Both the position numbers and the translations under genes were made by a program. The notes under the pieces were generated by a model, which worked only from the letters and a program-made list of their open reading frames with translations, was not told the origin of the DNA and did not search any database. Positions 28,132-56,130 of a stretch of 64,000 nt of DNA are shown piece by piece. Within the stretch, counting starts at the first letter, position 1, and every line of letters starts with the position of its first letter. This stretch comes from a virus: IMG/VR virus record IMGVR_UViG_3300046740_000431, positions 1-64,000 of that record, one strand, 5' to 3'.

Positions 28132-28205
<74 letters not shown>

Positions 28206-35140: not shown

Positions 35141-35159
35141 GCGTGCATATTACGCCAGA

Positions 35160-35480: not shown

Positions 35481-35522
35481 GGCGCCCCTACGGTAACACG
35501 CCGGGTCGACGCGGTCGTAGGG

Positions 35523-35756: not shown

Positions 35757-35782
35757 GCGGCGGACGCTACACCGCCGGTCGA

Positions 35783-38542: not shown

Positions 38543-38545
38543 CCG

Positions 38546-38815
38546 CTACCCGCTACCGAGGTACTCGACGCCTCGGAGGAACACGCGGCGGCCCTCCATG
38601 CGCTCGAGCTTGGCCTCGAACGGGGTGCACGGCTTGTCCGCGCACGGCCCGCAGGTGTGCTTGAAGCACAACCGGCAGAACCCGCCCACGTCGGCCGCGG
38701 CGGCGCCCGGCGCGATGATCACGACGTGCTGGCAGTGGCAGCACGTGATCGTGCTCCGCTCCACGGTCGGCGCGTCCGGGTCCGTGATGATCAGCGTGCC
38801 GAACTCGCGCGCCAC
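38546..38815 (-). CDS. Small multi-Cys zinc-binding protein
   Basis: CCHC...CRLC...CGPC...C. Confidence 0.65.
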   Translation of the reverse strand: MAREFGTLIITDPDAPTVERSTITCCHCQHVVIIAPGAAAADVGGFCRLCFKHTCGPCADKPCTPFEAKLERMEGRRVFLRGVEYLGSG

Positions 38816-38819
38816 CGGC

Positions 38820-39272
38820 CTACAGCTCCTCGATGTAGAGCGTCCCCGTGCACGCGACCGTCGCCGCGGTCGGCGTTCGGAGCGCGATCCCGTTGTTGGC
38901 GGTCGCCGGGACGACGATCTCGCCGTCCGGCGCCGGCACCCAGCGGAACGAGGCGCGCTGGTTCAGGCCGAGCGACCAGAGGATCGCGTTGGCGGTCAGC
39001 GTCGGATCCACGGTGTGGGCCTGCGCGGCGTCGAACAGCGCGACGGCGTTGGCCGTGTCGAGCGGCTGCGGCGTCACGGTGGTGCCGGTGCCGACGGTGG
39101 TGCAGCGCTGGATCTGCCACAGGAACCCGTTGTCCGCGGGGGTGGCCTCGCCGGCCGACACGATCATGTCGTAGAGCCTGAGCCGGCGCGGCGTGGTCGC
39201 GTCGGCGGTGACATTGCCCACGCTGAGGGTGGCGGATGCGGTGCGGGTCAGAGCGACGGAGTAGCGGCCCAT
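38820..39272 (-). CDS. Beta-rich putative structural protein
   Basis: Thr/Ala-rich 150 aa; SD AAAGGA. Confidence 0.6.
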   Translation of the reverse strand: MGRYSVALTRTASATLSVGNVTADATTPRRLRLYDMIVSAGEATPADNGFLWQIQRCTTVGTGTTVTPQPLDTANAVALFDAAQAHTVDPTLTANAILWSLGLNQRASFRWVPAPDGEIVVPATANNGIALRTPTAATVACTGTLYIEEL

Positions 39273-40150
39273 GATCGTGTCCTTTGTCGTGGGGCCGGGG
39301 CCCCGGTGTAGGACAGCGATGATGGGACCGCGCTGGCGGGCGCGCTACCCCGGTCCGGTGGCCAGCGCCTTCTCGACCTCGTCGCCGAGACCATCGCGCC
39401 AGGCTCGGTACCACTGCGGATTCCTGCCCTGGGCATCGGGTCGCCAGCCGAGCTCGCGGCAATACGCGGTCGCGAGCTTGCCGATCCCGTGGCGAGCGAT
39501 GAGATCTCTGACGTCTGGCTTCACGCTGGAACTTTCGAGCACGGACCTACGTGACCGCTCATCCTGCGACAGACAAAGAACTGCTCGTCTTCAGTCACGG
39601 TCGTGGTCCCGCAGATCGACGGGTACCCGATGCCGAGGTCAACCGAGATCTGGTGGTTCTGCCACCGCGGCCACGTTGACCGCTCGAGATCCCTGGCAGC
39701 CATAGCCTCCGACCGGCGCGCCGCGACAGCAGATCTCGCCTGCGCTGGCGTCGGCCGCCGCGGTGCCCGGCGCAGCTTGCGGCTCGCGTTGCTCACGGCT
39801 GCTCCATTGGCCTGCTGTGGATCTCCTTGTTGCTGCGGTCGATCTCCTCCTTCATCTTGCCGATGAACACCCGCCTCTGATCGGCGTTCTCGGGGATGTG
39901 GTCGAGCGCCGCGCGGCCCAGCGCGGAGACCCGCATCTCGGCCAGCACGCGGCGCGTGAGCCAAGTAACGCGGAGCGTCTGCCAAATGGCGAGTGCGCCG
40001 GTGAACAGGGTGCAAACGATGCTGACCAGCGTCATGACGTCCTGTGGTCCTCTCCGTAGTCGTTGGGCTGCTGGCTGGGAGATCCCGGCCAGGCGTTGAG
40101 GTTCGCGTAGGCGACCAGGAACACCCAGGCGCCGGCCACGAGACACCAGG

Positions 40151-42190
40151 TCAAGCTGCCCTCGCGTACTCGATCGTGCGGATCGCAGCCATGCCGACGG
40201 CGCGCGCGAGCTGCGGAGGCACGCTGTTTCCGACGCATTTGATCTGCGCGGTTTTGGTGAGCGGCTTCCCGCGGAACAGCAGCTCGATCTTGTAGCTCGG
40301 CGGGAAGCCCTGGCAGAGGAACAACTCGCGCGCCGTGAGCATGCGGAACCCGATGTCGACGAGGACCCACTGCACGCCGTCAATCTCGAGGACGATCGGC
40401 GCGTCGTAGCCCAGGAACCTGGCCACGCGCATCGCCCGCTCGCTGACCTCGAGCTCCATGGTGAGCGTGACCAGCGCGAAGCGATCCCGGGTGTCGATGG
40501 TCGACAGCGGCTTGGCGAGCGACTCCGGCCCGCTCTCGCCGTTGTAGCGGATCAGGTACGCGGCGGTCATCGCGTGATGCGTGCCGGACGCCGAGATCGT
40601 GTCCAGCGGCTCCTCGACGGCGTGGCTCGACGCGGCCACGTGCGCGTCGCTCGTCCCGCGCAGCTTTAGCAGGTTGAGCATGGCCACCGAGTGGTGGTCG
40701 CGCTGGGTGATCGTGCCGATCGGCGCGTTCATTCGCTGGCCGCCAGCGAAGCCGCCCTCGCGCTCGCCGTAGTTCTTGACCAGCACGGGCATCGCCAGTC
40801 CGTGCTTCTGGGTGCCGACGATAGTCCCGATCGGCTTCTGGGCGTCGTAGACGCGGGGCTCCTGCGCCTTCGTGGTCTCGGTGGCTCCTCGCTCGCCGTT
40901 CGAGCGATGGACGAGGTACGGGGTCGCCACCGCCAGGCGCCTTGAGGTGTCGATCGTCGAGAGCGGTTCGTCTGGCCGCTGACCGCGCGCCTCGCCGTCG
41001 CGCTGGCCGTTGTACCGGACGACCACGGGCGCTGCCACGGCGTGCTCGCCGCGCTTCGACGTCATGATCGTGGTGAGCGGCACGTCGGCGTTTTGCGCGT
41101 CGTTGCCGCCGCCGCCGTACGTCTTCGCCTTGAGCACGAGCGGCGACACGACGCCGTGGCCGTCGCGGTTGCCGCAGATCGTCCGCATCGGCTCGTCCAC
41201 GCTCGAGACGCGAACGTCCGTCCCGCCCTTGTCGCCGTAGGACGTCGGCACAATGAACGGGCGACCGGCACCGAACACGAAGCGCTCGATCCCGGCCCGG
41301 ATCCGCGCGAGCGTCTTCTCGGCGAGCGCCTTTGCCCGCTCGAAGATCGAGGGGCACTCGATCGACCAGTCGATGCACTCGGCCGCGGTTCGCCACGGCT
41401 TCGCCCGGTTCGGGCCGTGCGTGGGCTCTGGCCACACGGCCGGGTTGTCGCTGGCGATCAGCACGAACCGCTTCCGGCTCGTCGGCGCGCCGTAGTCGCT
41501 CGCCTTCAGGACGCGGTACGAGACGTGCCGGTAGTACTTCCCGAGCCTCGAGATGAACGCGTTGAACAGCGACCCGATGCGCGCCTTGATCGGCCGCATG
41601 AAGTTGCAGTTCTTGAGGCACTTCGGGCGCCGCTTCCCGCTCTTGGTATCCGTCCCCCGCCGCGCGGCGAGCTCGTCGCTGCACCCGTTCGAGTGGCAGC
41701 GGTGGAGCGGACCCCACTTCATGAACGGCTCGACGTTCTCGAGCGACATCACGCGCGGCCTGACCGCCGACGCTGCCCACGAGACCGCGATCCAGGCGAG
41801 CCCGCGCACCTTGGTCGCTTCCTTGTCGAGCGGCCCGCCCTTGGCCTGCGAGAAGAAGATGCACGTAGGCGAGAAGTGCGCGTAGGCGATCCGCTTCCCG
41901 CCGCTCGCCGCGACCGGGTCGACCTTCACGATGTCCTCGCAGAACACCCGGCACCTGGGGTTGTTCTCCTCGTACATGGCCAGCGCGGCCGCCCAGTGGT
42001 TCACCGCGATCGTCGGTGCCCGGCGCTCGATGCCGAGTTCCTCGTACGCCCACCTCATGCCCAGGCTCGCGCCTCCACCGCCGGCGAAGTTGTCGGCGTC
42101 TGGCTCGTCGGGATCTACCCAGACGCGGAGCGGCGGAGCGCTGGCCGGCTCACCGTCGCAGAACAGCTGCAGCTGAGGTCTCACCTTCAC
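40151..42190 (-). CDS. C5-cytosine DNA methyltransferase with a long repeat-containing variable region
   Basis: FAGGGG, SPTC (catalytic Cys), LENV, YGAPTSRKR, RMLTAREL..CQGFP and GNSVPP. Confidence 0.92.
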   Translation of the reverse strand: MKVRPQLQLFCDGEPASAPPLRVWVDPDEPDADNFAGGGGASLGMRWAYEELGIERRAPTIAVNHWAAALAMYEENNPRCRVFCEDIVKVDPVAASGGKRIAYAHFSPTCIFFSQAKGGPLDKEATKVRGLAWIAVSWAASAVRPRVMSLENVEPFMKWGPLHRCHSNGCSDELAARRGTDTKSGKRRPKCLKNCNFMRPIKARIGSLFNAFISRLGKYYRHVSYRVLKASDYGAPTSRKRFVLIASDNPAVWPEPTHGPNRAKPWRTAAECIDWSIECPSIFERAKALAEKTLARIRAGIERFVFGAGRPFIVPTSYGDKGGTDVRVSSVDEPMRTICGNRDGHGVVSPLVLKAKTYGGGGNDAQNADVPLTTIMTSKRGEHAVAAPVVVRYNGQRDGEARGQRPDEPLSTIDTSRRLAVATPYLVHRSNGERGATETTKAQEPRVYDAQKPIGTIVGTQKHGLAMPVLVKNYGEREGGFAGGQRMNAPIGTITQRDHHSVAMLNLLKLRGTSDAHVAASSHAVEEPLDTISASGTHHAMTAAYLIRYNGESGPESLAKPLSTIDTRDRFALVTLTMELEVSERAMRVARFLGYDAPIVLEIDGVQWVLVDIGFRMLTARELFLCQGFPPSYKIELLFRGKPLTKTAQIKCVGNSVPPQLARAVGMAAIRTIEYARAA

Positions 42191-43525
42191 GGGGTCTCCA
42201 GCGTAGCCCTGGCCGCGACGTATCGACCGTCGGCGGCCAGCTCGTCGGCCTCGAAGTTGGACACCAAGATCTCGACGAGATCCCGGGTTGCGGTCTCGAG
42301 CTCCCGGATCCGCTCGAGCAGCTCGCAGATCTCGCCCTCGCGCAGCAGGAGCTCATCGCAGACCACGCGCGTGCTCTCGTCACCGGCGCCACGGCCGCGG
42401 AGATCCGCCACCGCAGCTGAGACCATGCCGGCCCTGGAGCGCAGCGCCTCGTACGTGAGCGACGAGATCCCGTCACCTGCACGGGGGATCATACCGTATG
42501 TAGATCCCTCCGGTTGGATCCCCTCTCCTTGGCAGGCAAGGCAGGCGCCGGTCCCGCGGCAGGTCCGGCACATCGCCGCGAGCCAGAGGCAGTCGGGCAG
42601 GTGGTCCACCGCGTAGGCAGCCGTACCCTGCGTGACGGGAACCCCGGCGCAGCGGCACAGCTCCGACGGGTGCTCGCCGCCGGAGACCTTCGGCCAGACG
42701 AACGGCTTGGGCTCTGGCGCGAGCAGCATCCTCCACGCGCGGCGCTGCTGGCGTAGGAACGTCGCGATCCGCCTCATCCTCCGACCTCGACCGCCGACGA
42801 CGACTGCTCTGCACTGCGGGGTGCAGGATCGGCGTTGGTCACCGGGATCTCGATGGGCAGAACCTCCTCCCTCCGTCGACGACGACCGATCGGTCCCGTC
42901 TGGAACCCAACCAGGATGCTGTGCTGTTCTCGCACCCAAGAAACGCTGAGATCCTGGATTGTGCCAGAAAGTACTAGGTCCCCAATCCGCTGGAGTACGT
43001 TGGCGACTGCCCTCCTGCGCTGCACCTCCGGCTCGGCGAACGACACCGCGCCGTGCTTGAGTGCGCGGCGGATCTCGCGGAGCGACCGGTCGGCGACCAC
43101 ATCGGCGTCGAGGTCGTGCTCGGCAACGCTCTGCTGGCGGAGCACGCGCTTGGCGGCGTCGTGCCAGGCCAGGTCGTCCATGGTGATGCCGACGGCGTGT
43201 TGGCCGGCGAGGTTGGTGATCCTGACCTCCTCGATCGGGATCTCGAGGGTGATCAGGATGTCCTGGTCGTTGATGACGTGGGAGGTCTTCACGTGATCTC
43301 CGGCGTCTGGTGGAGCGCCCTGGTCGCAGCGAGCTCGGCGTCGATTGCGTCGGACTCGGCCCGCGAGGCGCGGTCGTGTTCGAGCTTAGCGGCCTCGAGC
43401 CGGCGATCGGCGTCGTGTCGCGCGGAGCCGGCCTCGTAGCGGGCGCGGACCGCAGCCTCGAACGCCTTGAGCGTACCCACCGTGACGGTGACGGTGCGAT
43501 GGTCGTCTGCGTTGAACTTCTTCAC
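42187..43525 (-). other. Three coupled hypothetical genes (42187-42777, 42774-43292, 43289-43525)
   Basis: Stop-start overlaps. Confidence 0.55.
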
Positions 43526-43971
43526 GAGGGGATCGGCTCCCCGAGCCCGAAGCTCGACAGGATGCGGGCGAAGGCCTCTTCGTCCGTGGAGTACTCGGCG
43601 CCCAGCGCGCAGAACACGCTCTGCCTGGTGTCCCCGCTGAACACCAGCTGGCGGGCCCCACCGTAGGCGAAGCCGATCTCCGCCCAGGCGCCGCGGGTGG
43701 CGAGGTCGGGGTAGGCCTTGGGCGGGACCAGGAACCACACGGTCAGCGCGGTCGCCGCCTCGGAAAGGCACTCGAGCGCGACGCGGCGGCGCTGCACTGG
43801 CGGCCAGCTGTCGGGGTTCGCCGCGCCGGCCTGCTCGATGCTGTCGATCCACGATGCCATGGCGTCAACGCCGGCCTGGCGGAGCCGGTCACGCCAGCGC
43901 TTGGCCCGCTCGATCTCCGCCGACGACGCGGCGACGTACACCTTCGGTCCTGAAACTTTCTCTCGTGCCAT
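43522..43971 (-). CDS. Nucleoside 2-deoxyribosyltransferase-like protein
   Basis: KVYVAA, SWID and TRGAWAEIGFAYG (catalytic Glu motif). Confidence 0.75.
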   Translation of the reverse strand: MAREKVSGPKVYVAASSAEIERAKRWRDRLRQAGVDAMASWIDSIEQAGAANPDSWPPVQRRRVALECLSEAATALTVWFLVPPKAYPDLATRGAWAEIGFAYGGARQLVFSGDTRQSVFCALGAEYSTDEEAFARILSSFGLGEPIPS

Positions 43972-44045
43972 CTGGTCCTCCGCTCGGCCATGCGAGCTGC
44001 GAAAACCACGGTTGCATATCCGGGTGTGGCACGTCAATCACCGGG

Positions 44046-44798
44046 TCAGTGCTGTGGGTAGGTTACGCAGTGCACGCGGCCGTCCCAGCATGCCCGGCAC
44101 TCGCCGCACTTGTTGTCCCTGGTCTCCACGGCGCGGCACTCGATGGACCCACGACCCTCGACCACGCGCACGCCGCTCGAGCTGTACGGGACGCTGGAGA
44201 CCGCGCTGACGGGGATCCCGGCGAGCTCGGCGGGCAGCACGGGCTCCGAGTCGATCATGTGCGCGGAGAGCCGCACCGTGAGGTTGCCCGGGATCTCGCG
44301 ACCGGCCAGGTACTCCCTGACCACCTCGTACTCCCTGGTGGGCAGCCAGTGCCTGACGCCCGGCGTTCTTCGGCAGACCTCGACGATGTTCTCGAGGTGC
44401 CAGAGGCCCTGTAGATCCCCGCTGTCATGCCACCGGAACCAGTCGTGCGGCGGCCTGCAGGCGCTCGAGATCAGCTTGACCATCGCCTCGACCCAGAGCG
44501 GGTGGTGGATGCCGTTCCACCTGCGCCGGTGGCCCTCGAGCAGCGGGCGCCAGGTCCGGTACCAGTCGGTCATGGCGTAGCAGCCGGAGCACACCGAGCC
44601 AGGGACGCCGCGGAGCTTGCCGCCGGTCTGGCAGCGCTGGGCCGAGATCCCGTAGCTGTAGCCCGGCATCTTCGACGGGTGTCCGAGCGATCCAGCGATG
44701 GCCGTGGCCACCTTCCTGGTCATCGGCCCGCTGTAGTCGTGGGGGATCGCCGTCGCCTCCGTGAACTCGCGGACGACGGGCAGCGAGCCGCGGCGCAC
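44046..44798 (-). CDS. Gp88-like protein (probable Fe-S / radical-SAM-like)
   Basis: SKMPG.SYG, C.TG...VCSGCYA, FRWHDSGDL, HWLPTRE, NLTVRLS and CGECRACW. Confidence 0.8.
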   Translation of the reverse strand: MRRGSLPVVREFTEATAIPHDYSGPMTRKVATAIAGSLGHPSKMPGYSYGISAQRCQTGGKLRGVPGSVCSGCYAMTDWYRTWRPLLEGHRRRWNGIHHPLWVEAMVKLISSACRPPHDWFRWHDSGDLQGLWHLENIVEVCRRTPGVRHWLPTREYEVVREYLAGREIPGNLTVRLSAHMIDSEPVLPAELAGIPVSAVSSVPYSSSGVRVVEGRGSIECRAVETRDNKCGECRACWDGRVHCVTYPQH

Positions 44799-45756
44799 CT
44801 ACCCTCCGCCGGAATCGCCGAGGTCGACGTAGCCGATGGACCGGAGCTCGCGCCTGGCCTGCTGCCGGTTGACCCGTCGGAACCTGCGGGTCATCGCGCG
44901 CGCCGCCGACTCTCCGCGGTGCCACGGCCGCCAGTGGTCCGCGGCGTGGGTGTGTCCGTTGATGATCCCCGGGTCGTCGCCGAATACGGCGCCCGGGATC
45001 TCAACCCACCTGAACCACAGAGAGTCGGAGCCGTCCATCCTGACGATGCCGTCGAGGCGCGGCGTCACGGCGTCGATCCTATCGATGTTGGTCATCGGGT
45101 GTGGTCCGCCGGGTAGATGCGGTTGACGCGCTTCCCGCCGGCGGCTTCGTGGACGCTGGCGTCGAGCTCGTGGTCGAGCAGCCGACCGACCGAGTACTCC
45201 GCCGACTTGCTCTGCGATGCGTGCTCCTGGCACTGCTCGACCATGACCCACCCATCGAGCTCGGGATCGTACGCCTCCGAGCAGCCGCAGCCGCGGACGA
45301 CAGCGCTCACGGGCGGGCCGCCAGGAACTCAGCCACGGCCGCGTTGGCGCCGCTGATGACCGCCTCCGCGGACTCGGCCATGCCGTGCTGCTCCACCACC
45401 GCGGCGAGAGCCTGGCGGCTCCACCCGACGATCACGCCGTAGAGCCAGGAGTCCGTGGGGTTCTTGGACCAGTCGCGCTGGTCGGTCGACATCGCGGTGA
45501 TCAGCGAGGCGATGGCGATGTGGAGAACTGGGAGAGATCCCCTGATGTCGTCCTGTGCGTCAGCCCGCTGCCGGTCGTACTCCGGCATCTGAGCCTTGGC
45601 TTGCTCGTCATGTGCGGAGCGAAGCTCGAGAAGCTCAGAGACGGCATTCTGGAGATCTGCTCGCATCTTCCTGACGCGATCGAGAAGATCTCCAGGACCA
45701 CCGTGTTCGTCGACTCCCAGGGCACTCGCCAGAGCTTCGGTTGCTGAGCTTTCCAT
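44799..45756 (-). other. Three coupled hypothetical genes (44799-45095, 45092-45310, 45307-45756)
   Basis: Overlaps; SD GGAGGG directly after the tRNA-like element. Confidence 0.55.
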
Positions 45757-45766
45757 GTTCCCTCCG

Positions 45767-45860
45767 TGCACCAGGCGGGGCTCGAACCCGCGACCTTCGC
45801 AGCCGGACCGGAGGTATGACGCTCCGACCGCGGACGCTCTACCGTCTGAGCTACCGGTGC
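45767..45860 (-). tRNA. tRNA-like RNA with normal acceptor, D and T arms and a 38-nt anticodon arm
   Basis: GCACCGG TA GCTC AGACGGTA GAGC G [TCCGCGGTCGGAGCGTCATACCTCCGGTCCGGCTGCGA] AGGTC GCGGG TTCGAGC CCCGC CTGGTGC A. Confidence 0.8.
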
Positions 45861-45945
45861 ATACGACGCAGGAGAATTCCTGCGCCGGGCGCCCGCGGCC
45901 GCCACGCCGAGTCGCGCCAGGGGTGGCGCGGCGGGAACATCGAGA

Positions 45946-46059
45946 TCACCGGACCGCCAAGCTCCACAGCACGACTGCCAGTGGCATCACGAGCAACCAC
46001 AACAGGAGGAGGATACCTGCGCTTCCGCAGGCGTCAGGCTTGTTTCGTCCGATCGGCAT
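45946..46059 (-). CDS. 37-aa single-TM peptide
   Basis: MPIGRNKPDACGSAGILLLLWLLVMPLAVVLWSLAVR behind TTGACA-N18-CATTAT-N6-ATG. Confidence 0.5.
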   Translation of the reverse strand: MPIGRNKPDACGSAGILLLLWLLVMPLAVVLWSLAVR

Positions 46060-46091
46060 CAGGCGATAATGCGGGCGTAGAGCGTGAAATG

Positions 46092-46364
46092 TCAAGCATC
46101 GCCTAACGCCTCGGCCAGCCGCTCGCGCTCGAAATTCGGCCTCGCTTCTCGGTCAACCTGGCGGATCCCGGCGAGCAGGTTGTAGCTGGGACGGGTCTTC
46201 GCCTCCCCGGTGCTGGCGTCCATCATGGTCACCGCGACCACGCGGAGACGAGATCTCATGTCGCGAGCTGCCGAGATCGCCTCATCGACCAGGAGGTCGA
46301 CGGACTGGTATCGCTGGCCGGTGTCGAGCACCACCTCGACGATGAACGGGCCGCAGGACTTCAC
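46092..46364 (-). CDS. Hypothetical protein
   Basis: CATAGT-N7-GTG. Confidence 0.5.
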   Translation of the reverse strand: MKSCGPFIVEVVLDTGQRYQSVDLLVDEAISAARDMRSRLRVVAVTMMDASTGEAKTRPSYNLLAGIRQVDREARPNFERERLAEALGDA

Positions 46365-46397
46365 CAGATCGACTATGCGGCGCCCGCCCGCAAACGG

Positions 46398-47582
46398 TCA
46401 AGCCAGGAGCTGCTCGACCTGGGCGCCCGACAGCGTGGCGTTGCTGACCAGCGTGAGCACCGGGGACCCCGCATCGGTAACGGTTTCGAGCATCACCCAC
46501 CACCCGGCTGGCACGAATCCGCCGATCGCGTTGCCGTTCCCGGTCTTGTTGGCGATGGCGACGCCGAGCCCGAGGTTGTACTCGACCTCGCAGCAGCTCG
46601 GCTGAACCGTCGTAGATCCCGCGGTCGGTCCCATGCGGAACTGCACGCGACCCTTGTGGTTGCCGGCCAATGACGCCGTCACGGATGCCGACGCGCGGTA
46701 GGAGACGATCGACGGGGCTGTCGGCGATACCTGGAAAGCGGTGTTGAGCACGCGCGCGGCGACTCCGCCGGTGATCCCGGGGAGCTGGGCAGTGACGGAG
46801 CCGAACCCGGCGCCAGCTGGTCCAGTTGCGCCGGTAGCCCCGGTGTTGCCCTGTGGTCCGGTTGCCCCGGTGGCCCCCTGCGCTCCGGTCATCCCCTGAG
46901 TGCCGGTGGCACCCTGCGGACCAGTCGCACCCTGTGGGCCAGTCGATCCGGCTGGGCCAGTCAACCCCTGCGGACCTTGGGCTCCGGTCGCGCCGGCAGT
47001 TCCAGTGAGGCCCTGCGGGCCTTGCACGCCGGTGGAACCTGGAATCCCTGCTGCCCCGGTCAACCCCGTCGCGCCGGTGTCGCCCTTCGCGCCAGCCGGT
47101 CCTGCGGTGCCCTGGATCCCCTGCATCCCGGTCTGCCCCGTTGCCCCGGTCGCGCCCTGGGCGCCGGCCGGGCCGGTGGCGCCGGCTGGTCCCTGCGGCC
47201 CGGTCGCTCCGGCGTCACCCTTCGGGCCCTGCGGGCCGACGGCACCGACAGCTCCGGCCGGGCCGGTGGTGCCGGCTGCACCCTGGGATCCGGTGGCGCC
47301 CTGCGGACCGGTGGCGCCGACCTGGCCAGGAGATCCCGTTGCTCCGGTTGGCCCCTGAGGTCCAGCCGCTCCCTGGGCTCCTGTCGGTCCAGCTGGTCCG
47401 GCTGGCCCCTCGATGGTCATCCACGCGGTGTCGCTGTTGTCGGCGGTCTTTACTTCGAGGTGCGGGACGTTCGACCCGTCCACCCAGACGCACAGCCTAC
47501 CGGTTGGGCCCGTGAACCCGTTGCCGGGCTGCTGGGGGTTGTTGGGGGTGATCCAGATCGTTGGCATCGGGACGTCGGACAT
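46398..47582 (-). CDS. Collagen-like fibre protein (67 uninterrupted Gly-X-Y triplets, C-terminal beta domain)
   Basis: Counted from GPAGPAGPT to GPAGAG. Confidence 0.9.
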
Positions 47583-47628
47583 CGTGCGGTGATACGCCAC
47601 GGACCGACACCACACCACGTCTAAGTTG

Positions 47629-47952
47629 CTACGGCTCCCACGTCGCGCCAGGCACGACGTCGAAGGCCTTGGCGTAGGCCTTGCCGTCGCTCGGCGTCGC
47701 GCCGGCGCCAGCCGAGATCGCAGCGGCGCGCTGAGCGGCCGACAGGGCGATGTACGTGACGGTGGATCCGGTCGACGGGGTCCTGACGTCCGCGATCTGC
47801 GCGCCGATGGTCGCGAGGTTCGCCGTCAGGAAGTCCTGCAGAGCAGGAAGCGACGTGTCGCTCACCATGTGACACCAGTCGTCACCGACGACGCCTGGAG
47901 GGTGGAAGTCGGTCGCGGAATGCGTGGATACGGGGCCGATGTAGATGGTCAC
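47629..47952 (-). CDS. DUF4031-like small protein
   Basis: [18 protein letters not shown] and [10 protein letters not shown]. Confidence 0.5.
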
Positions 47953-48740
47953 ACCGGGATCGGTATCACGTTGCCGGCGTCGTCGACCTGAAACCCGTCC
48001 GCGATCTCTGCCGTGGCCCTCGCAACGATGACGGCGCGCGCGAGAGCTGCTTCCTGGTCGTGCCGCTCGAGCTCGCCGAGCAGGTCTACGAGCTTCATGA
48101 TCTTCTCGAGGGTAGCCCTCTGCCTCCGCGGAGTCGCCGCGCAGGCGGCGAACAGGCGCAGGATCTCTTGGTTGATCCCGAGGACAGCCTGCTCGACTTC
48201 GTCAACCCGTGAACTCGCCTGCGCCTGTGCACGCTCGGCCTGGCACTTCATGCAACCGGGGTCGCAGTCTCCGCGCTGGCCCGTCCCACCTGGCCCGTGC
48301 TTCATGCGTAGATCTCGGCCGGTTTCGCCAGGGAAGAAACCGGCCGCGCGCAGCTTGTTCAACTTCTCGAACATCCTTGGCGGCTCCGTGCTCCGCTCGA
48401 TCTCCTCTCGGACGATCTGTCGGATGTTGACCGCCGACTCGACGCCTTGTGCTCGAAGATCTCGCAGTTCGCGAAGCGCGGCCGCCGTCATCCACCCTGC
48501 ATCTCCGGTCGCGTAGTGCTTCAGCATCTTGTCGATGGCGGAGTCGGACAGCTTGGCCGGCTTCTGCGCCAGCTCGTCAAGCCTCCGCTTCGCCCTGGCC
48601 GCGAGATCTCCAACTGCCGCAAGGCAACTCAGGCAGTCCACCAGGTCAACGCACGTGGTTGCGTTCTCCGTTGGCGACCCGCTCCCGCAGTAGCGCTCGA
48701 GTCCGCCGAACCCGTCTCCGAGTAGATGTGTAGTTGCCAT
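47949..48740 (-). CDS. Hypothetical Cys-containing protein
   Basis: SD AAGGA before ATG 48740. Confidence 0.55.
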   Translation of the reverse strand: MATTHLLGDGFGGLERYCGSGSPTENATTCVDLVDCLSCLAAVGDLAARAKRRLDELAQKPAKLSDSAIDKMLKHYATGDAGWMTAAALRELRDLRAQGVESAVNIRQIVREEIERSTEPPRMFEKLNKLRAAGFFPGETGRDLRMKHGPGGTGQRGDCDPGCMKCQAERAQAQASSRVDEVEQAVLGINQEILRLFAACAATPRRQRATLEKIMKLVDLLGELERHDQEAALARAVIVARATAEIADGFQVDDAGNVIPIPV

Positions 48741-48760
48741 TGTCTTCCTTGTTGTTGATG

Positions 48761-49192
48761 TCATGCGCTTTTTCGGTGCGTGTCGTGGCATCCAGAACAG
48801 CGGCATCCGTGGGTAGCCGCTCCGTGCGCCGCGCCGTTGATGCAGAGCTTGAGCAGGCGCAGCTTGTCTCGCCGGTGCTGCGCGAGCAGCCGCTGGGTCT
48901 GGTCTGACTTGTACCGGCGTGCCATCGGGCTCGATGCGTCCTCGATCGCGGTCGACCCGGACTGGCCCACCGCCCACGGCGTAGGGCTGCCCTCTCGCCT
49001 GACCAGGTACCCGGCCTTCGCCATCCTGCCGAGCTGGCCGTTCATCCACCTGACCAGCGCGTCGGGTTGCAGCCTCGACCTTGGCATCACCGCGGCAACG
49101 ATCTGATCGGCGGTAGAGATCCCGGCCAGGCTCACCGCCCTCAGGATCGCGGTCCACGTGGTCCCGATCCGGGCAGATCTCCGTTGCCTCAT
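48761..49192 (-). CDS. Winged-HTH plus C-terminal Zn-finger protein
   Basis: LGRMAKAGYLVRRE...W; C..G..H...CRCSGC; TTGACA promoter upstream. Confidence 0.55.
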   Translation of the reverse strand: MRQRRSARIGTTWTAILRAVSLAGISTADQIVAAVMPRSRLQPDALVRWMNGQLGRMAKAGYLVRREGSPTPWAVGQSGSTAIEDASSPMARRYKSDQTQRLLAQHRRDKLRLLKLCINGAAHGAATHGCRCSGCHDTHRKSA

Positions 49193-49200
49193 GGGTCCTT

Positions 49201-49815
49201 TTATCGTCGCTTACCCGTGAATGTCAACGAACGTCCGGCCGGCTGTGGATAAGGCACCAGGAACGGAGCTCGCCAGATCGCGGCCGCCGATGAGATCCCG
49301 GACTCGATGGCCTGCGGCACGATGGCGACCGGGACGCCGGCAGCCAGCGCAGCGGCAACGTCAGGGCGTCCTGTGAGAAGCGGATCGGTCATCGCGACCA
49401 CTGCGTCGGCGCGCTGCGCCAGCGCAGCGGCGGCCTCGGCCTTCATATGGTGGGGCTCGGTCCTGACGAGGTACGGGGACACAGCGAAGATCCCCATGGT
49501 CTCGAGCCAGGATGCGTGCTGGCAACCCTGCGCCGCCCAGTCCCCTGGCCACGCCAGGTAGACCACCAGCGGGATTCCGAGCGCCGCCAGCGCGGCCGGC
49601 GCGATCCTCACCTGGCGAGGCGCCATGGCGCTCGCGCGGGCGCCGGATAGCATGTGCCCGTCGGCCGTCGCCCGGCGGACCATCTGCACGGTGGCGGCCG
49701 GGCTCCTGCCCGTGGCCTTGGCGATCTCGACCGCCACCGGAGGCCGGTGGAGCTCTATGGCGAGGCGCTGGACCTGGCGAAGCCACGAAGCTCGGCGCGC
49801 CGGGATCAGCTTCAC
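49201..49815 (-). CDS. LexA-like wHTH fused to an NDT/DUF4406-like Rossmannoid domain
   Basis: HRPPVAVEIAKATGRS; VVYLAWP...AVSP...AQRADAVV...A.AAGVPV. Confidence 0.5.
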   Translation of the reverse strand: MKLIPARRASWLRQVQRLAIELHRPPVAVEIAKATGRSPAATVQMVRRATADGHMLSGARASAMAPRQVRIAPAALAALGIPLVVYLAWPGDWAAQGCQHASWLETMGIFAVSPYLVRTEPHHMKAEAAAALAQRADAVVAMTDPLLTGRPDVAAALAAGVPVAIVPQAIESGISSAAAIWRAPFLVPYPQPAGRSLTFTGKRR

Positions 49816-51551
49816 GCCGGCCTCGCCTTCCTGCGCAGCACGTCCTCGGCGAGCCGCCTGATGTGGTCGTCGGCTGCGCCTTTGAACTCCGGCATGCCGG
49901 ACGCGTCGGGGTTCAGGAGGTAGTGCGACTGGGCCTCCTTGATGCCGAGCACGTCGGAGATCACCGGGTCGCTGCCCTCGTCGGCGAGCGGGACGTAGAT
50001 CGTCACCGGCTGGGTCTGCCCATCGCGGTGCAGGCGGCCGATGTCCTGGTGGATCACCTGCGGTGACCAGTCGAGCTCTCCGATGACGCCAGTCCTGCAC
50101 ACGGACTGGAGGCCATCGAGCCCGGCGCCGGCGCGCAGCGAGATGATCAAGACCTGGGCATCACCCTCGACGAACCGCTTCCTGGCCGCGTCCTTCTGGC
50201 CTTCGCTCTGCTTCCCGGTGTAGAGCGCGTACCGGATCGGCGTCGTGTGGCGCTCGAACGAGTCGGCCCACAAGCTGTAGACCTCGTGGTGCCAGCCGAA
50301 CAACACGACCTTGTCGCCGCCGTCGACCAGCATGCGGACCAGGTCAGCCACCGCGCCGGCCTTTGCGATCCCGGTGGCCTGTCGGAGCCTCCAGTCGAGC
50401 TCTCCGGCGCTCTGCATCCGTTCGGTCGGTGACCCGATCCTGTCGAGCACCCGGCGCGCGAGCTCGGCGACGTCGGCGGACGCCTTGTTGATCGCGTCCG
50501 GGTCGCACTCGACGGCGTGCCTCACCACCGTGAGCTCCGGGATCTCGCGGCCGACGTCCTTCCGGGTGCGCCGGATCATCAATCCGCTCTCGCGCAGGTA
50601 GCTGCCGAGCGCCGCGGGGTCCTGGACCGACGCCTTGCCGTCCTGCCCCGGCGGGCCTCCGCACCACTCGTCGTAGAACTCCTTGTGCGTGCCGAGCTGC
50701 CCAGGCGCGATCACCTCCATCACGTTGAAGATCTCGTTGCCGTAGTTGTAGACCGGCGTCGCCGTGAGCCCGATCCGCAGGTCGGCGGCCTGCGCGAGCG
50801 CCACGCCGGCCGCGTACTTCTTCGTCCCCGCGTGCCTGAATTCCTGCGCCTCGTCCATGATCACCGTGCGGGCCACGCCGGCCAGCGACTCCACCCAGCC
50901 GTGGAGCTTGTGGTAGTTGATCAAGAGCACATCGGGCACGCTCTTGCTCCTGACCATCGAGCGGCGCTTGGTGACCGGGTCCCGCTCCATGCGGATGTCC
51001 GTGAACGGGTACGGCTGGGCCTTGCGGATCCGATGGACGCGCAGCTTCGGCGCGAAGCGCGCGAGCTCGCGCTCCCACTGCCTGGTGAGGTGGGTCATCG
51101 TGATCACAACGGCGGGCAGGGTTCCGGGCGCCGTGAGCGCGCAGATCGCGGTGACCGTCTTGCCGGTCCCGAGGTCGTCGGCGATGAGCAGGTTACCGGT
51201 GCGCAGCGCGAGGTCGGCGCCGAGCCGCTGGTACTCGCGGGCCGGCAGCGCGAGCTCGAACGCGCGCGGCACGTAGTCGGCCATGTCGATCGCCTCGATG
51301 GCCGCGAGCTTCGCTTCCTGCTCGCCGATCAGCGACCGGAACTTCGCCTCGGACTTGGCGTCGACCTCGAGCGGGTGCCTCTCGCGGAACCAGTCGAGGT
51401 CGTAGGCGTGCTCCGGGGTCGCGGAGAGCTTGAACACCCCGGCCCGGTACCGCTGCGCGCCGCCGAACAGCCTCCGCAGCCGGATGCTCACGTGTGCCGG
51501 CGCGGTGATGATGAGCTGGTCGTCTTCGATTCGGATTGCGCCTGGGGTCAC
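49812..51551 (-). CDS. SNF2-family helicase/ATPase
   Basis: ADDLGTGKT, DEAQ, LTATP, IRRT, AGAGLDGLQ and WSP....QDIGRLHRDGQ. Confidence 0.92.
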   Translation of the reverse strand: MTPGAIRIEDDQLIITAPAHVSIRLRRLFGGAQRYRAGVFKLSATPEHAYDLDWFRERHPLEVDAKSEAKFRSLIGEQEAKLAAIEAIDMADYVPRAFELALPAREYQRLGADLALRTGNLLIADDLGTGKTVTAICALTAPGTLPAVVITMTHLTRQWERELARFAPKLRVHRIRKAQPYPFTDIRMERDPVTKRRSMVRSKSVPDVLLINYHKLHGWVESLAGVARTVIMDEAQEFRHAGTKKYAAGVALAQAADLRIGLTATPVYNYGNEIFNVMEVIAPGQLGTHKEFYDEWCGGPPGQDGKASVQDPAALGSYLRESGLMIRRTRKDVGREIPELTVVRHAVECDPDAINKASADVAELARRVLDRIGSPTERMQSAGELDWRLRQATGIAKAGAVADLVRMLVDGGDKVVLFGWHHEVYSLWADSFERHTTPIRYALYTGKQSEGQKDAARKRFVEGDAQVLIISLRAGAGLDGLQSVCRTGVIGELDWSPQVIHQDIGRLHRDGQTQPVTIYVPLADEGSDPVISDVLGIKEAQSHYLLNPDASGMPEFKGAADDHIRRLAEDVLRRKARPA

Positions 51552-52348
51552 GCGGTCCTCCAGAACTTCGGGTACGGCAACGCGGCCGCGGTCAACACCT
51601 CGCGCCGGCGGCGCCGATCGAGGCTCCAGAGGTATCGGTGATTGCCGTGGTGCCGCAGCGGCCGGGTCAGGAGCGGGCGCCATCGCCGCAGCCACGCCGC
51701 TGCGTCCTCATCGGGCCCGAGCCGGTCCGCGCCCCAGCGCTCGAGCGCGGCCGCCGCGTAGCGCCACCCGACATCGCGGCACGTCAGCTTGCTCATCGCG
51801 CGCCTGCTCAGCACGGTGCCGTCGGGGAGCAGCCGCAGCGTCGACGGGTTGGTGCGGCCGACGTACCGGCCGTTGGTGGCGCAGTAGATCGTGCCGAGGT
51901 GGCCCGGGAACACCATCGCGCCAGCCGCGCTGGTCCGCGCGACCGGATCGGCGCAGCTCGCGACCGCGGTCACCCGGCCGCGCAGCGCGGAGAAGCACCG
52001 CGCGAGGAACCAGCTCTCGCCGTTGCCCGGCACGCTGTCGACGAGCACGAAGCGCCCGAGGTCGACCGCCTCGCGCGGATCGAGCGTGGGCCACACCGCT
52101 CGGTGCGCCGCGCCGGACGCGCCGACCGAGAACACCGCCACGCCAGCGAGCTCGCCGCGCTGGTACAGCCCGAACCGGAACCGCGCCGCGCACCATGTTC
52201 CGCTGTAGTGGTGGTGTTCGACGAACGCCCGCGGCCGCGCGTCGTCGGCGAACTCGACGACGTCGTACGCGGACGGCCGGATCAGCTCGCCGCTGGGCCG
52301 CCGGGACTCGCGGCGCTCGGTCCAGCGCTGGACGAAGTCGGTGATCAC
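51548..52348 (-). CDS. Mom-family GNAT adenine-modification protein
   Basis: RAFVEHHHYSG, LGRFVL...PGNGESWFL, SCADP and GHLGTIYCATN..Y.G. Confidence 0.82.
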   Translation of the reverse strand: MITDFVQRWTERRESRRPSGELIRPSAYDVVEFADDARPRAFVEHHHYSGTWCAARFRFGLYQRGELAGVAVFSVGASGAAHRAVWPTLDPREAVDLGRFVLVDSVPGNGESWFLARCFSALRGRVTAVASCADPVARTSAAGAMVFPGHLGTIYCATNGRYVGRTNPSTLRLLPDGTVLSRRAMSKLTCRDVGWRYAAAALERWGADRLGPDEDAAAWLRRWRPLLTRPLRHHGNHRYLWSLDRRRRREVLTAAALPYPKFWRTA

Positions 52349-52385
52349 CGGACGCCCATGGCTGCACCGAGACCGTCGAGACTGC

Positions 52386-52829
52386 TCACGACGTCCTCAG
52401 CGCGATCACGCGGAACGGCTTTCCACCGATGGTTGAGTCGCGCTGGTTGCCAAGCGGGCCGGTGAGCTTGCGGGTCAGCTGCGCCGACGTCGTCACGACG
52501 ATCACGGCGTCGACGTCCTGCATCGTCGCGTAGCGCTGGACCTGGCGCTCGACCGCCGCGGCTGATCCGCCGAGCTTGAGCTCCAGCACGACGTTGATCC
52601 GGCGCGCGACGTCTGGGGCCACGCGGACGTGGACAAGGATGTCGAACCGCCCGCCGTGGATCGCGACCTCGCGCTCGAAGCTGACCCCGCGGTCGGCCAG
52701 CGTTCCCTGGATCCGCTCGGTGAGCGCGATCGACACCTGATCCTGCAGCTCCGCCTCGTCGCGAACCCGGAACACGTACCCGGCCAGCGCGTCGAAGACG
52801 AGCCTAATCGCTTCCTCGGTGGTGATCAT
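52386..52829 (-). CDS. PD-(D/E)XK nuclease
   Basis: E.ELQ, FEREV, GRFDILV, LELK and QVQRY. Confidence 0.75.
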   Translation of the reverse strand: MITTEEAIRLVFDALAGYVFRVRDEAELQDQVSIALTERIQGTLADRGVSFEREVAIHGGRFDILVHVRVAPDVARRINVVLELKLGGSAAAVERQVQRYATMQDVDAVIVVTTSAQLTRKLTGPLGNQRDSTIGGKPFRVIALRTS

Positions 52830-53085
52830 CCGAAATCCTCGACGTACTCGATGATGACCCTGAAGTTCAAACAGCCGGTGGGGCGGAATGTTTTGATGGC
52901 GTACGCGATGAACTTCTCGCGCTGCTCGGACGACTCGCGCCTCAGACGACGAACGACATCATCCTCGCTGGCACAGGCACCGAGACGCCGCATTCTACCG
53001 GCGAAGAACTCGTCGATTTTAGACACCGCTCTCGCCAGATCAGCGTCGATCTGACACCCGATGCACGATCCGCACTTTTTGATCA

Positions 53086-53655
53086 TCATGGTGACCTCAC
53101 AGGGATCCATCCGCGCCGACCGCCGATCGACACCACCGCACCCTTGGTCTCCAGCCGGCGGAGAATGTCGGCCACCGTGACAGCCGGGATCCCGAGCCCG
53201 TCGGTCAGCTCGCGGTGCAGCGGCGGCATGCCGTAGAGCTCCACGTACCGGTACAGCCACGCGAAGACACGCCACTCGTTGGGCGCCAGGTAGATCGGAT
53301 CCGGCGTCTCCGCGATCGGCGCCGGTGTCGCTGCGGGCGCCGAGATCGACCGCACCGGGAACTCGTCGGAGAACTCACCGGCGAGCGCGCGCTGGGCCAG
53401 GCTCTCGATGTCCCAGCTGACCGAAGCGTGTCCGGGAACCCGGCGCAGCGCGTCCACCAGGTCGAGCTTCGGCCGCGGAGAGCCGGCCCGGATGTCGTGG
53501 TAGTCGCCGCAGAGCACGGAGAGGGCGATCCTTGCCATCGCCAGGCGGGTCGGCTTCGCTGCGTCGCCTGCTGAGCTGGAGCGCTCGACCAGGGCGCTGA
53601 CCTCGGCGTAGAGCCGGGCGGTCGCGGACCCGAGCTTCGCTTCCACCGCGGGCAT
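53086..53655 (-). CDS. Protein with a C-terminal LexA-type DNA-binding wHTH
   Basis: EWRVFAWL..Y...YGMPP..REL...LGI...TV..IL.RLE.KG. Confidence 0.7.
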   Translation of the reverse strand: MPAVEAKLGSATARLYAEVSALVERSSSAGDAAKPTRLAMARIALSVLCGDYHDIRAGSPRPKLDLVDALRRVPGHASVSWDIESLAQRALAGEFSDEFPVRSISAPAATPAPIAETPDPIYLAPNEWRVFAWLYRYVELYGMPPLHRELTDGLGIPAVTVADILRRLETKGAVVSIGGRRGWIPVRSP

Positions 53656-53902
53656 CTAGTTGGCGCCCTTGGCGACCGTAATCGATCCGTCCGGTCCGCG
53701 ACGAAGACCGCCAGCCTTGAGATAGGCGTCCATCTGCTTCCCGGGCATGTCAACGAACATGATCCGGTGGCCGTCCTCGAAGATCACGCCTTCGATGAGC
53801 TTCGAGCCGTCCGGCCGGTCCATCACGACCCACCCCCAGTCGTCGCGCGCGCATGAGTACCCTCGGGTCATCCAGTCATTTAGCGGGCACGGACCGCAAA
53901 AG

Positions 53903-55740: not shown

Positions 55741-56130
55741 TCACGCCTCGCCTCGGATCTCTCGGAGCTTGACCTCGAGCTTGGCGCGATGCTCGTAAGC
55801 TTCGGCGATCCGCTCCTCGATGGTCGCTCGAGCGGTCTCCAGCCGGACGATGTCAGCGCTGATTGCGTCGCGCGCCTCACGAACCGCCGCCGCCTCGGAG
55901 ATGTTCTCCTCTGACCTGCCCGGCGCCGGCCGCGCCATCGAGACCGCATCGGTGATCCGCGGCACGAGCGAGCTGGACTTCGCCTTGGTCAGGACGTGGC
56001 CGACGGCGGCGTGCGAGGTCCCGGCCGCTCGCGCGACGTCGGCGATCGAGAGGCCGGCGTCCTTCATCCTCGCGATGACGCTCGAGCGCCACTCCTCGGT
56101 GACCGGGTGATCGGAGATCGCGTGGATCAC
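55741..56130 (-). CDS. XRE/Cro-type HTH protein
   Basis: RMKDAGLSIADVARAAGTSHAAVGHVL. Confidence 0.75.
   Translation of the reverse strand: MIHAISDHPVTEEWRSSVIARMKDAGLSIADVARAAGTSHAAVGHVLTKAKSSSLVPRITDAVSMARPAPGRSEENISEAAAVREARDAISADIVRLETARATIEERIAEAYEHRAKLEVKLREIRGEA

What the first reader, a model, noticed from the sequence alone, without database searches (positions are those of the whole stretch)
45767..45890. tRNA-like RNA with an anticodon arm extended by 21 nt
Seen: canonical acceptor, D, variable and T elements enclose a 38-nt arm (normal 17). It forms about 12 bp with bulges and an apical CGUCAUAC loop containing CAU, and a UCCGG duplication permits two pairing registers. A 9-bp hairpin sits just 5', and the SD of the next gene just 3'. 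Such an arm cannot fit normal decoding geometry, yet the elbow is intact. Inference: a synthetase/EF-Tu/nuclease decoy, an RNase P/Z processing signal for the operon, or a tRNA with a tiny non-self-splicing intron.
Basis: partly seen in the sequence, partly recalled or inferred. Interest (0 to 1): 0.75.

Follow-up and report, generated by a model that had tools for sequence, protein, structure and literature searches.

The report
Phage tRNA with overgrown anticodon arm
An uncultured high-GC phage carries a tRNA gene whose anticodon arm has grown from 17 to 38 bases; related phages have an ordinary tRNA-Val or tRNA-Arg at the same spot, so this is most likely a tRNA that can no longer read codons, not a new kind of RNA.

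Summary
Rfam calls it a tRNA at 47.5 bits. The acceptor, D and T arms are perfect. The anticodon arm is 38 nt and forms a 10-bp helix, a G.G mismatch, 2 more bp and a 9-nt loop containing CAU.

The window is part of a 92-kb IMG/VR phage record with 69% GC. The nearest relative I could find (terminase 66% identical, syntenic) has a canonical 72-nt tRNA-Val(UAC) at the orthologous locus. It shares the same roughly 100-nt two-hairpin leader and the same Shine-Dalgarno sequence right after the discriminator base. Two further metagenomic orthologues carry tRNA-Arg(UCU). Only this phage has the extra 21 nt. The extra sequence contains short local direct repeats, which fits a slippage origin.

No intron reading works, and no splicing or RNA-ligase gene was found. 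Expression could not be tested.

My best reading is a decoding-dead derivative of a conserved leader-tRNA module. At most it still serves as an RNase P/3'-end processing site ahead of the next gene. A selected tRNA mimic is not excluded.

The scan has noted conserved non-decoding phage tRNA look-alikes on other DNA. This one is a singleton among its orthologues.

The parts
45767..45860 (-). 94-nt tRNA-shaped gene (5' end at 45860, discriminator A at 45767; no CCA encoded)
   Evidence: Rfam RF00005 47.5 bits. The cloverleaf body is fully paired.
45797..45834 (-). 38-nt arm in place of the 17-nt anticodon arm: 10 bp, a G.G mismatch, 2 bp and a 9-nt loop
   Evidence: MFE -21.3 kcal/mol, z = -3.4. 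The alternative register scores -14.8. The arm has no other copy in the genome.
45811..45819 (-). Apical 9-nt loop. It holds a U-CAU-A string that looks like the remnant of the ancestral anticodon loop.
   Evidence: Comparison with the anticodon loops of the orthologues.
45818..45839 (-). Local direct repeat. A 7-nt word from the 3' half of the D arm occurs twice, 15 nt apart, and a preceding 4-nt word is also repeated. Together with the UCCGG-UCCGG tandem at 45802-45811, this suggests the enlargement arose by slippage duplications.
   Evidence: and direct reading.
45864..45887 (-). 10-bp hairpin ending 3 nt before the tRNA 5' end. It is conserved in the orthologues, with compensatory changes.
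45913..45930 (-). Upstream leader hairpin (7 bp, 4-nt loop). It is conserved in the orthologues, with a compensatory A-U to G-C change.
45861..45936 (-). Conserved non-coding leader of the module. With the tRNA, it is the only nucleotide-level island shared with the relative phage inside an 18-kb variable region.
   Evidence: blastn HSPs 45836-45936 and 45759-45795.
46066..46095 (-). Sigma-70-like promoter match (10 of 12), about 200 nt upstream of the tRNA-like gene
   Evidence: This is a consensus match only.
45307..45766 (-). Shine-Dalgarno sequence (45765-45760), ATG (45756-45754) and a 149-aa orphan ORF directly behind the tRNA-like gene
   Evidence: GC3 0.77. No family match. No homologue found apart from the ORF itself.

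Best explanation
This is a decoding-dead descendant of an ordinary phage tRNA gene.

The gene belongs to a small conserved module made of a two-hairpin leader, a tRNA and the Shine-Dalgarno sequence of the next gene. The module recombines among related uncultured high-GC phages. In the other members, its tRNA is a normal tRNA-Val(UAC) or tRNA-Arg(UCU). In this phage, local duplications enlarged the anticodon arm by 21 nt into a 12-bp hairpin. That puts the former anticodon loop (CAU) about 8 bp too far from the elbow to reach a codon.

The rest of the molecule is untouched, so the transcript should still fold into the tRNA 'upper body'. It should still be cut by RNase P at its 5' end and by the tRNA 3'-end nuclease after the discriminator base. 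That cut releases the downstream mRNA with a 5' end just before its Shine-Dalgarno sequence. This inherited processing role is the only function I consider likely to survive. No new function needs to be invoked.

Shown: tRNA ancestry, orthology, uniqueness of the enlargement, the intact body and the fold of the arm.

Inferred: loss of decoding (from geometry and from the known 5-6 bp limit on anticodon stems), transcription from the upstream promoter-like site, and RNase P/3'-end processing.
For: 1. Rfam tRNA hit at 47.5 bits, with the insertion confined to the anticodon arm.

2. The relative phage G001 (terminase 66% identical; collinear over most of its genome) has a canonical 72-nt tRNA-Val(UAC) at the matching place. 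About 100 nt of leader, the tRNA body and the Shine-Dalgarno sequence align. This island is the only nucleotide similarity in the 32-50 kb variable region.

3. A metagenome scan with a leader pattern gave two more distinct orthologues, both tRNA-Arg(UCU) with normal 17-nt arms. It also gave three contigs with the same tRNA and leader as G001. Their flanks are mosaic.

4. All 16 body pairs are standard pairs in all four sequences. This phage shows two double compensatory changes.

5. The enlarged arm contains local direct repeats and occurs nowhere else in the genome.

6. A review of non-canonical tRNAs lists anticodon stems of at most 6 bp in active tRNAs (PMC7609411).

7. This phage already carries a separate tRNA-Arg(UCU) and a tRNA-Met(CAU).

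8. There is a promoter-like site upstream, and the Shine-Dalgarno sequence starts 2 nt after the discriminator base in both this phage and G001.
Against: - The arm is not a random wreck. It is a clean 10-bp helix with two G.U pairs, which pair only on the RNA-sense strand (z = -3.4). A slippage product need not fold that well.
- The body shows no decay at all, although it differs from the orthologues at about one position in five. So either the enlargement is recent or the fold is still under selection.
- The compensatory changes cannot be dated relative to the insertion, because no closer relative was found.
- No expression, processing or read-level data could be obtained.
- In one orthologue (L127) the Shine-Dalgarno sequence is not adjacent to the tRNA, so the processing coupling is not universal in the module.
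Confidence: 0.6

Rival explanations
1. A selected, non-decoding tRNA mimic. The long arm is an adaptation: the RNA acts as a decoy or sponge for a host factor that recognises the tRNA body, such as a tRNA-targeting defence nuclease, a modification enzyme or a synthetase. This would be the same general kind as the stable tRNA-like RNAs of phages T4 and T5.
For: - The body is perfectly preserved, with two compensatory double changes.
- The arm is a well-formed helix with RNA-only G.U pairs.
- Phage T5 is annotated with a 'tRNA-like stable RNA with unknown functions'.
- A viral scan found about 30 other tRNA-shaped genes with non-standard enlarged middles, a dozen of them in high-GC contigs.
Against: - The enlargement is unique among five orthologous loci, so the long arm shows no conservation or covariation.
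- Local repeats point to a mutational origin.
- No partner gene is evident: the neighbours are orphans.
- The other long-armed viral genes are unrelated to each other in arm sequence.
Confidence: 0.17
2. A cis-acting translational switch. The inserted sequence carries a 6-nt anti-Shine-Dalgarno string exactly complementary to the Shine-Dalgarno region just 3' of the tRNA-like gene, plus an internal copy of that Shine-Dalgarno string. Alternative pairing (arm register A, arm register B, or arm with the real Shine-Dalgarno sequence) would then tune translation of the 149-aa ORF.
For: - Direct reading shows the complementary strings.
- Two registers exist.
- In the favoured fold, four of the six anti-Shine-Dalgarno bases lie in the apical loop.
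- My rough estimate of the chance of such a 6-mer within 21 inserted bases at this composition is about 1-4%. The estimate is post hoc.
Against: - In a folded L-shape the tip of the arm is the point farthest from the 3' end, so pairing with an adjacent Shine-Dalgarno sequence would require unfolding the tRNA body.
- Register A is favoured by 6.5 kcal/mol.
- The MFE of the larger region pairs the Shine-Dalgarno/start region with the leader, not with the arm.
- The match was noticed after the fact.
Confidence: 0.07
3. A functional tRNA interrupted by a very small intron that is removed after transcription.
For: - With introns allowed, ARAGORN can force a model: tRNA-Gly(acc) with a 13-nt intron.
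- Small tRNA introns do exist in viral contigs. 51 of 81 distinct enlarged tRNA genes in my scan have an insert right after a standard 5-bp stem and anticodon-loop start, as a canonical-position intron would. Several of these contigs are labelled as giant-virus bins.
Against: - The forced model puts the intron at 31/32, has a mismatched stem and leaves an odd variable region.
- No deletion of 20-21 nt gives a 5-bp stem with a 7-nt loop (inspection).
- There is no bulge-helix-bulge motif.
- 21 nt is far too short for a group I intron.
- No tRNA splicing endonuclease, RtcB or RNA ligase was found in the record, and bacteria have no such pathway (established knowledge).
Confidence: 0.03
4. An assembly or sequencing artefact: the 21 extra bases do not exist in the phage population.
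For: The record is a metagenome assembly, and the insert contains short repeats.
Against: - The repeats are only 5-7 nt, far below assembler k-mer sizes.
- The insert forms a coherent helix.
- Read-level checks were not possible.
Confidence: 0.04

Closest known systems
Canonical phage-encoded elongator tRNAs, specifically the orthologous tRNA-Val(UAC) of IMGVR_UViG_3300005365_000022 and the tRNA-Arg(UCU) genes of contigs Ga0268265_10085438 and JAAEAP010258193.1
   Same: Same locus module: a two-hairpin leader followed directly by the tRNA. Same acceptor, D and T arms, about 80% identical, with every pair kept. Same discriminator base in most. Same Shine-Dalgarno sequence right behind the gene in G001 and L125.
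   Different: The orthologues have a 17-nt anticodon arm and a readable anticodon. Here the arm is 38 nt.
tRNA pseudogenes and non-canonical tRNA gene calls in prokaryotic genomes (see PMC9897764 on separating canonical tRNA genes from tRNA gene fragments; title and abstract seen only)
   Same: A tRNA-derived sequence that tRNA finders still report but that cannot work as a canonical tRNA.
   Different: This is not a fragment. It is full length, with every helix of the body intact and a stable new helix where the anticodon arm was.
Stable tRNA-like RNAs of phages: T5 RNA1, annotated 'tRNA-like stable RNA with unknown functions' in NC_005859, and T4 species 1 and 2 RNAs (own knowledge)
   Same: Phage-encoded, tRNA-shaped, presumably non-decoding, and sitting among tRNA or early genes.
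   Different: Those RNAs were shown experimentally to be stable. This one has no expression data and is not conserved even among its own orthologues.
tRNA-like processing signals in longer transcripts (mitochondrial tRNA punctuation; the MALAT1 mascRNA element; bacterial tRNA-mRNA co-transcripts). Own knowledge.
   Same: A tRNA fold placed so that RNase P and 3'-end cleavage would define the ends of a neighbouring RNA. Only the acceptor/T half is needed for recognition.
   Different: No cleavage data exist here. In the relatives the same position is filled by a working tRNA, so the processing role is a by-product of the module and not a dedicated device.
Active tRNAs with lengthened anticodon stems (tRNA-Pyl, tRNA-Sec, mt-tRNA-Ser(UCN); review PMC7609411)
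   Same: The anticodon stem is longer than 5 bp.
   Different: Those stems have 6 bp. This one has 12 bp plus a mismatch, which is outside any known decoding geometry.

Membership tests
tRNA (Rfam RF00005) | Score at or above the curated gathering score | tested here: met
   47.5 bits against 29.
tRNA (Rfam RF00005) | 7-bp acceptor stem, D arm with G18 G19, T arm with canonical T loop, U8/A14/A21, and a possible 15-48 pair | tested here: met
   Direct reading. All 16 body pairs are standard.
tRNA (functional, decoding) | 5-bp (at most 6-bp) anticodon stem with a 7-nt loop, U33, and the anticodon at a fixed distance from the elbow | tested here: not met
   The arm is 38 nt with 12 bp and a 9-nt loop. 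The known maximum is 6 bp (PMC7609411).
tRNA (functional, decoding) | Aminoacylation and use in translation | not testable with these tools
   Needs a charging assay.
tRNA with a bulge-helix-bulge (archaeal/eukaryal type) intron | Removing the insert restores a canonical anticodon arm, and a bulge-helix-bulge motif lies at the exon-intron junctions | tested here: not met
   ARAGORN with introns gives only a mismatched model with the intron at 31/32. No 20-21-nt deletion restores a 5-bp stem.
tRNA with a bulge-helix-bulge (archaeal/eukaryal type) intron | A splicing endonuclease and ligase are available | tested here: not met
   PF01974, PF01139 and PF09414 are absent from the 92 kb held. The record is only about 69% complete, and the host is unknown.
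tRNA with a group I intron | Self-splicing intron of a few hundred nt with a catalytic core | tested here: not met
   The insert is 21 nt, and no Rfam intron hit appears in 45650-46150.
tmRNA tRNA-like domain | tRNA-Ala-like acceptor with G3.U70, no D stem, a tag reading frame | tested here: not met
   ARAGORN found no tmRNA. The D stem is canonical, and pair 3:70 is A-U.
Phage tRNA-like stable RNAs (T5 RNA1, T4 species 1 and 2) | A stable, abundant RNA species in infected cells | not testable with these tools
Phage tRNA-like stable RNAs (T5 RNA1, T4 species 1 and 2) | The non-canonical shape is conserved among related phages | tested here: not met
   All orthologues found have a normal arm. 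No copy of the apical hairpin or of this phage's own T-arm/acceptor 3' sequence turned up in viral contigs.

The most novel reading that the evidence does not exclude
The long arm is a selected feature. The phage converted a redundant tRNA gene into a non-decoding tRNA mimic. Its intact upper body still engages host tRNA-binding factors (for example a tRNA-directed defence nuclease, or processing and modification enzymes), while the 12-bp arm keeps it off the ribosome. That would be a snapshot of how phage tRNA-like stable RNAs are born from ordinary tRNAs.
Probability: 0.15. Interest if true: 0.7.

Novelty: new variant of a known kind. Interest (0 to 1): 0.3.

Why it matters
As it stands, this is mainly a clean, datable example of a phage tRNA losing its decoding arm while keeping its body.

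The by-products interest me more than the flagged RNA itself. One is a small leader-plus-tRNA module that moves between mosaic phage genomes. The other is that the module's tRNA has switched anticodon, from Val-UAC to Arg-UCU, and the D-loop base at position 20 changed with it.

If the long arm proved to be selected, it would give an entry point to the old question of what phage tRNA-like stable RNAs do and how they arise. I found no evidence for that here.

Tried and rejected
- Exact 16-nt apical-hairpin search in viral contigs gave two chance hits in coding DNA, not tRNAs.
- Neighbour-protein searches for syntenic relatives led nowhere. The 149-aa and 402-aa proteins have no relatives in viral contigs. 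The GP88-like protein has relatives, but they are not syntenic and have no tRNA nearby. The 5.8-billion-protein search returned only the query's own cluster.
- The GenBank phage collection holds no DNA match to the module. The best terminase match is below 25% identity, to Streptomyces phages, so there is no cultured relative and the host is unknown.
- The genome-contig scan with the leader pattern gave one chance hit in coding DNA. Of the eight metagenome hits, two (L123, L126) are not orthologues.
- A second leader pattern and a pattern built from this phage's own T-arm plus acceptor 3' strand found nothing new in viral contigs.
- Integration-site (attP) remnant: rejected. The tRNA is complete, and no tyrosine or serine recombinase was found in the record.
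- Class II tRNA with a long variable arm: rejected. The first 17 nt after the D arm give only 3 bp and no U33.
- Y-RNA (YrlA) type: rejected. The ends are at the acceptor stem, not on the anticodon side.
- Repeated or mobile palindromic element: rejected. The arm has no second copy in this phage or in G001.
- ARAGORN's fourth call, a 94-nt 'tRNA-Gly' at 25300-25393, gets no Rfam support and looks like a false positive.

Full report
WHAT IS THERE

The window is the first 64 kb of a 92-kb IMG/VR virus record (linear, CheckV estimate about 69% complete, 69% GC). The flagged RNA is on the minus strand, with its 5' end at 45860 and its discriminator base at 45767.

- Rfam's tRNA model scores it 47.5 bits against a gathering score of 29. 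It places 34 nt where the model expects 13.
- Read directly, the body is textbook: a 7-bp acceptor stem (one G.U), a 4-bp D stem with an 8-nt loop holding G18 G19, a 5-nt variable region, a 5-bp T stem with a canonical T loop, discriminator A, and no encoded CCA.
- Between the D and T arms lies a 38-nt arm (45834-45797).
- ARAGORN's names for the gene are forced fits with mismatched stems. It calls tRNA-Pro(cgg), or tRNA-Gly(acc) with a 13-nt intron at 31/32 when introns are allowed.

THE ARM

Alone, the arm folds at -21.3 kcal/mol (z = -3.4; 1 of 200 shuffles as good). The fold is 10 contiguous pairs (two of them G.U), a G.G mismatch, two more pairs and a 9-nt loop.

It is possible but costs 6.5 kcal/mol more. 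In the full RNA the register-A pairs have probabilities of 0.94-1.0, apart from the outermost pair at 0.77.

The loop region still contains a U-CAU-A string in the usual anticodon-loop context. I read this as the remnant of the ancestral anticodon loop.

The arm has no second copy in this genome or in its relative, so it is not a repeated element. It does contain local direct repeats:
- A 7-nt word from the 3' half of the D arm recurs 15 nt downstream, preceded both times by the same 4-nt word.
- The UCCGG word is tandemly doubled.

My rough estimate is that the first repeat alone is only weakly significant (p about 0.1-0.3). Together the repeats fit an origin by replication slippage. I could not reconstruct a simple series of duplications that leads from a 17-nt arm to this one.

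SURROUNDINGS

The genes on both sides run on the minus strand.
- Upstream are a 90-aa orphan, a collagen-repeat protein, further orphans and a SNF2-type helicase.
- Downstream are a 149-aa orphan, small orphans, a GP88-family protein and a C-5 DNA methylase.
- This is an early/DNA-metabolism region, not a tRNA cluster. The phage's other two tRNAs, Arg-UCU at 16264-16336 and Met-CAU at 28132-28205, lie elsewhere.
- A sigma-70-like promoter match lies at 46095-46066 on the minus strand.
- From there, a roughly 200-nt non-coding stretch runs into the tRNA-like gene. Its last 100 nt hold two hairpins, the second ending 3 nt before the tRNA 5' end.
- The Shine-Dalgarno sequence of the 149-aa ORF begins 2 nt after the discriminator base.

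RELATIVES: THE DECISIVE EVIDENCE

Neighbour proteins gave no syntenic relatives. The large terminase did. IMGVR_UViG_3300005365_000022 (G001, 88 kb) is 66% identical in terminase and collinear with this phage over most of its length. The exception is a variable block that corresponds to 32-50 kb here.

Inside that block, the only nucleotide-level similarity is 45759-45936 against G001 51566-51723. There G001 has a canonical 72-nt tRNA-Val(UAC). The alignment (A1) shows three things shared:
- both leader hairpins, with compensatory changes;
- the tRNA body;
- the Shine-Dalgarno string right behind the discriminator base.

The flanking proteins are unrelated.

A metagenome scan with a pattern from the leader gave six orthologous hits among eight:
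- three contigs carrying the G001-type gene, plus G001's own source contig;
- Ga0268265_10085438, with a 73-nt tRNA-Arg(UCU);
- JAAEAP010258193.1 (102 kb), with a 74-nt tRNA-Arg(UCU).

Their flanks are mosaic. One shares its downstream gene with G001 and an upstream gene with a different part of this phage. So leader plus tRNA behaves as a module that is kept while its surroundings are exchanged.

All these orthologues have 17-nt anticodon arms. The extra 21 nt are found only here.

THE BODY IS MAINTAINED, BUT THIS CANNOT BE DATED

On the four distinct sequences, all 64 pair cells of the acceptor, D and T stems are standard pairs. This phage differs by two double compensatory changes: 3:70 G-C to A-U, with a G.U intermediate seen in one orthologue, and one T-stem pair A-U to G-C. 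It also has one G.U.

That shows selection for the fold along the path between these genes. Without an outgroup or a closer relative, I cannot say whether any of that selection acted after the enlargement. Every helix and every tertiary-contact base is intact, although the body differs from the orthologues at about one position in five. So either the enlargement is recent or the fold is still needed.

WHAT IT CANNOT BE

- Not an intron. No 20-21-nt excision restores a 5-bp stem with a 7-nt loop, there is no bulge-helix-bulge motif, and 21 nt is far too short for a group I intron. The record has no splicing endonuclease, RtcB, RNA ligase or CCA-adding enzyme.
- Not an attP remnant. The tRNA is complete, and no recombinase was found.
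- Not tmRNA, a class II tRNA or a Y-RNA type mimic.
- Not a decoding tRNA. Active tRNAs are known with at most 6-bp anticodon stems (PMC7609411).

HOW IT MOST LIKELY WORKS

I commit to this reading: a tRNA of the module lost decoding through enlargement of its anticodon arm. This phage has its own tRNA-Arg(UCU) and tRNA-Met(CAU), so the loss may have cost little.

The transcript still contains a complete acceptor/T-arm/elbow unit. That unit is what RNase P and the tRNA 3'-end nucleases recognise (established knowledge). It should therefore still be excised, which leaves the downstream mRNA starting just before its Shine-Dalgarno sequence.

This processing role is inherited from the module and is inferred, not shown. 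In one orthologue the Shine-Dalgarno sequence is not adjacent to the tRNA. Confidence is 0.6.

RIVALS

- A selected tRNA mimic or decoy (0.17). The tidy helix and intact body speak for it. The lack of any conservation of the long arm speaks against it.
- A translational switch (0.07). The insert carries a 6-nt string exactly complementary to the adjacent Shine-Dalgarno sequence, plus an internal copy of that sequence. However, the tip of the arm is the point farthest from the 3' end in an L-shaped fold, and the match was noticed after the fact.
- An intron (0.03).
- An assembly artefact (0.04, untestable here).

COMPARISON WITH WHAT IS KNOWN

The closest thing is simply the orthologous canonical phage tRNAs. 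Next closest are tRNA pseudogenes and the stable tRNA-like RNAs of T5 and T4; T5's annotation was checked.

The scan's earlier notes list several conserved families of non-decoding phage tRNA look-alikes on other DNA. Those are unverified AI notes and served only as leads. This element differs from them in being a singleton among its orthologues.

VERDICT

The feature is most likely a degenerate tRNA. Interest is modest at 0.3.

Noticed in passing
L129:129-200 (-), L125:1305-1377 (-), L127:4142-4215 (-), compared with window 45767-45860: Anticodon switching inside one orthologous phage tRNA slot. With near-identical leader and body, the gene is tRNA-Val(UAC) in some contigs and tRNA-Arg(UCU) in others. 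The Arg versions also have an A at D-loop position 20, a known ArgRS identity element, whereas the Val version and this phage have U.
   Followed up: partly
window 45861-45936 (-) and the matching leaders in L125, L127, L128, L129: A roughly 100-nt non-coding leader with two hairpins travels with the tRNA as a module through otherwise mosaic phage genomes. The hairpins keep their pairing through compensatory changes. No Rfam family matches the leader. Its role (terminator without a U-tract, processing site or stabiliser) is unknown.
   Followed up: partly
window 16379-16398 (-) and 45867-45885 (-): Hairpins with the same stem word stand upstream of two of the phage's tRNA genes: about 45 nt before tRNA-Arg and 6 nt before the tRNA-like gene. 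A third match, at about 50795, appears to lie in coding sequence.
   Followed up: no
window 45809-45814 (-) versus 45761-45766 (-): The enlarged arm contains a 6-nt string exactly complementary to the Shine-Dalgarno region that follows the tRNA-like gene, plus an internal copy of the Shine-Dalgarno string at about 45822-45826. Separately, an 8-nt leader word at about 45932-45939 is the exact reverse complement of the end of the Shine-Dalgarno sequence, the spacer and the AUG of the next ORF; RNAfold pairs these two.
   Followed up: partly
loci L016-L110 from the viral-contig scan: A pattern for tRNA genes with this D arm and T loop but an enlarged middle found 81 distinct genes. In 51 of them the insert follows a standard 5-bp stem and anticodon-loop start, as a canonical-position intron would. 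These are mostly Lys-UUU and Ile-UAU types, several of them in contigs labelled as giant-virus bins. About 30 are otherwise non-canonical, including a dozen in high-GC phage contigs where a long hairpin replaces the anticodon arm (for example L039/L041/L085, L047/L062, L072, L074, L091, L023). Their arms are unrelated to each other.
   Followed up: partly
window 25300-25393 (-): ARAGORN calls a 94-nt tRNA-Gly(gcc) here. Rfam does not, and the stretch does not read as a tRNA. It is probably a false positive.
   Followed up: partly
window 32000-49900 versus G001 41900-58900: An 18-kb block between the terminase region and the SNF2 helicase is almost completely non-homologous between two otherwise collinear phages. 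It looks like a hypervariable accessory-gene region, mostly of orphan ORFs.
   Followed up: no
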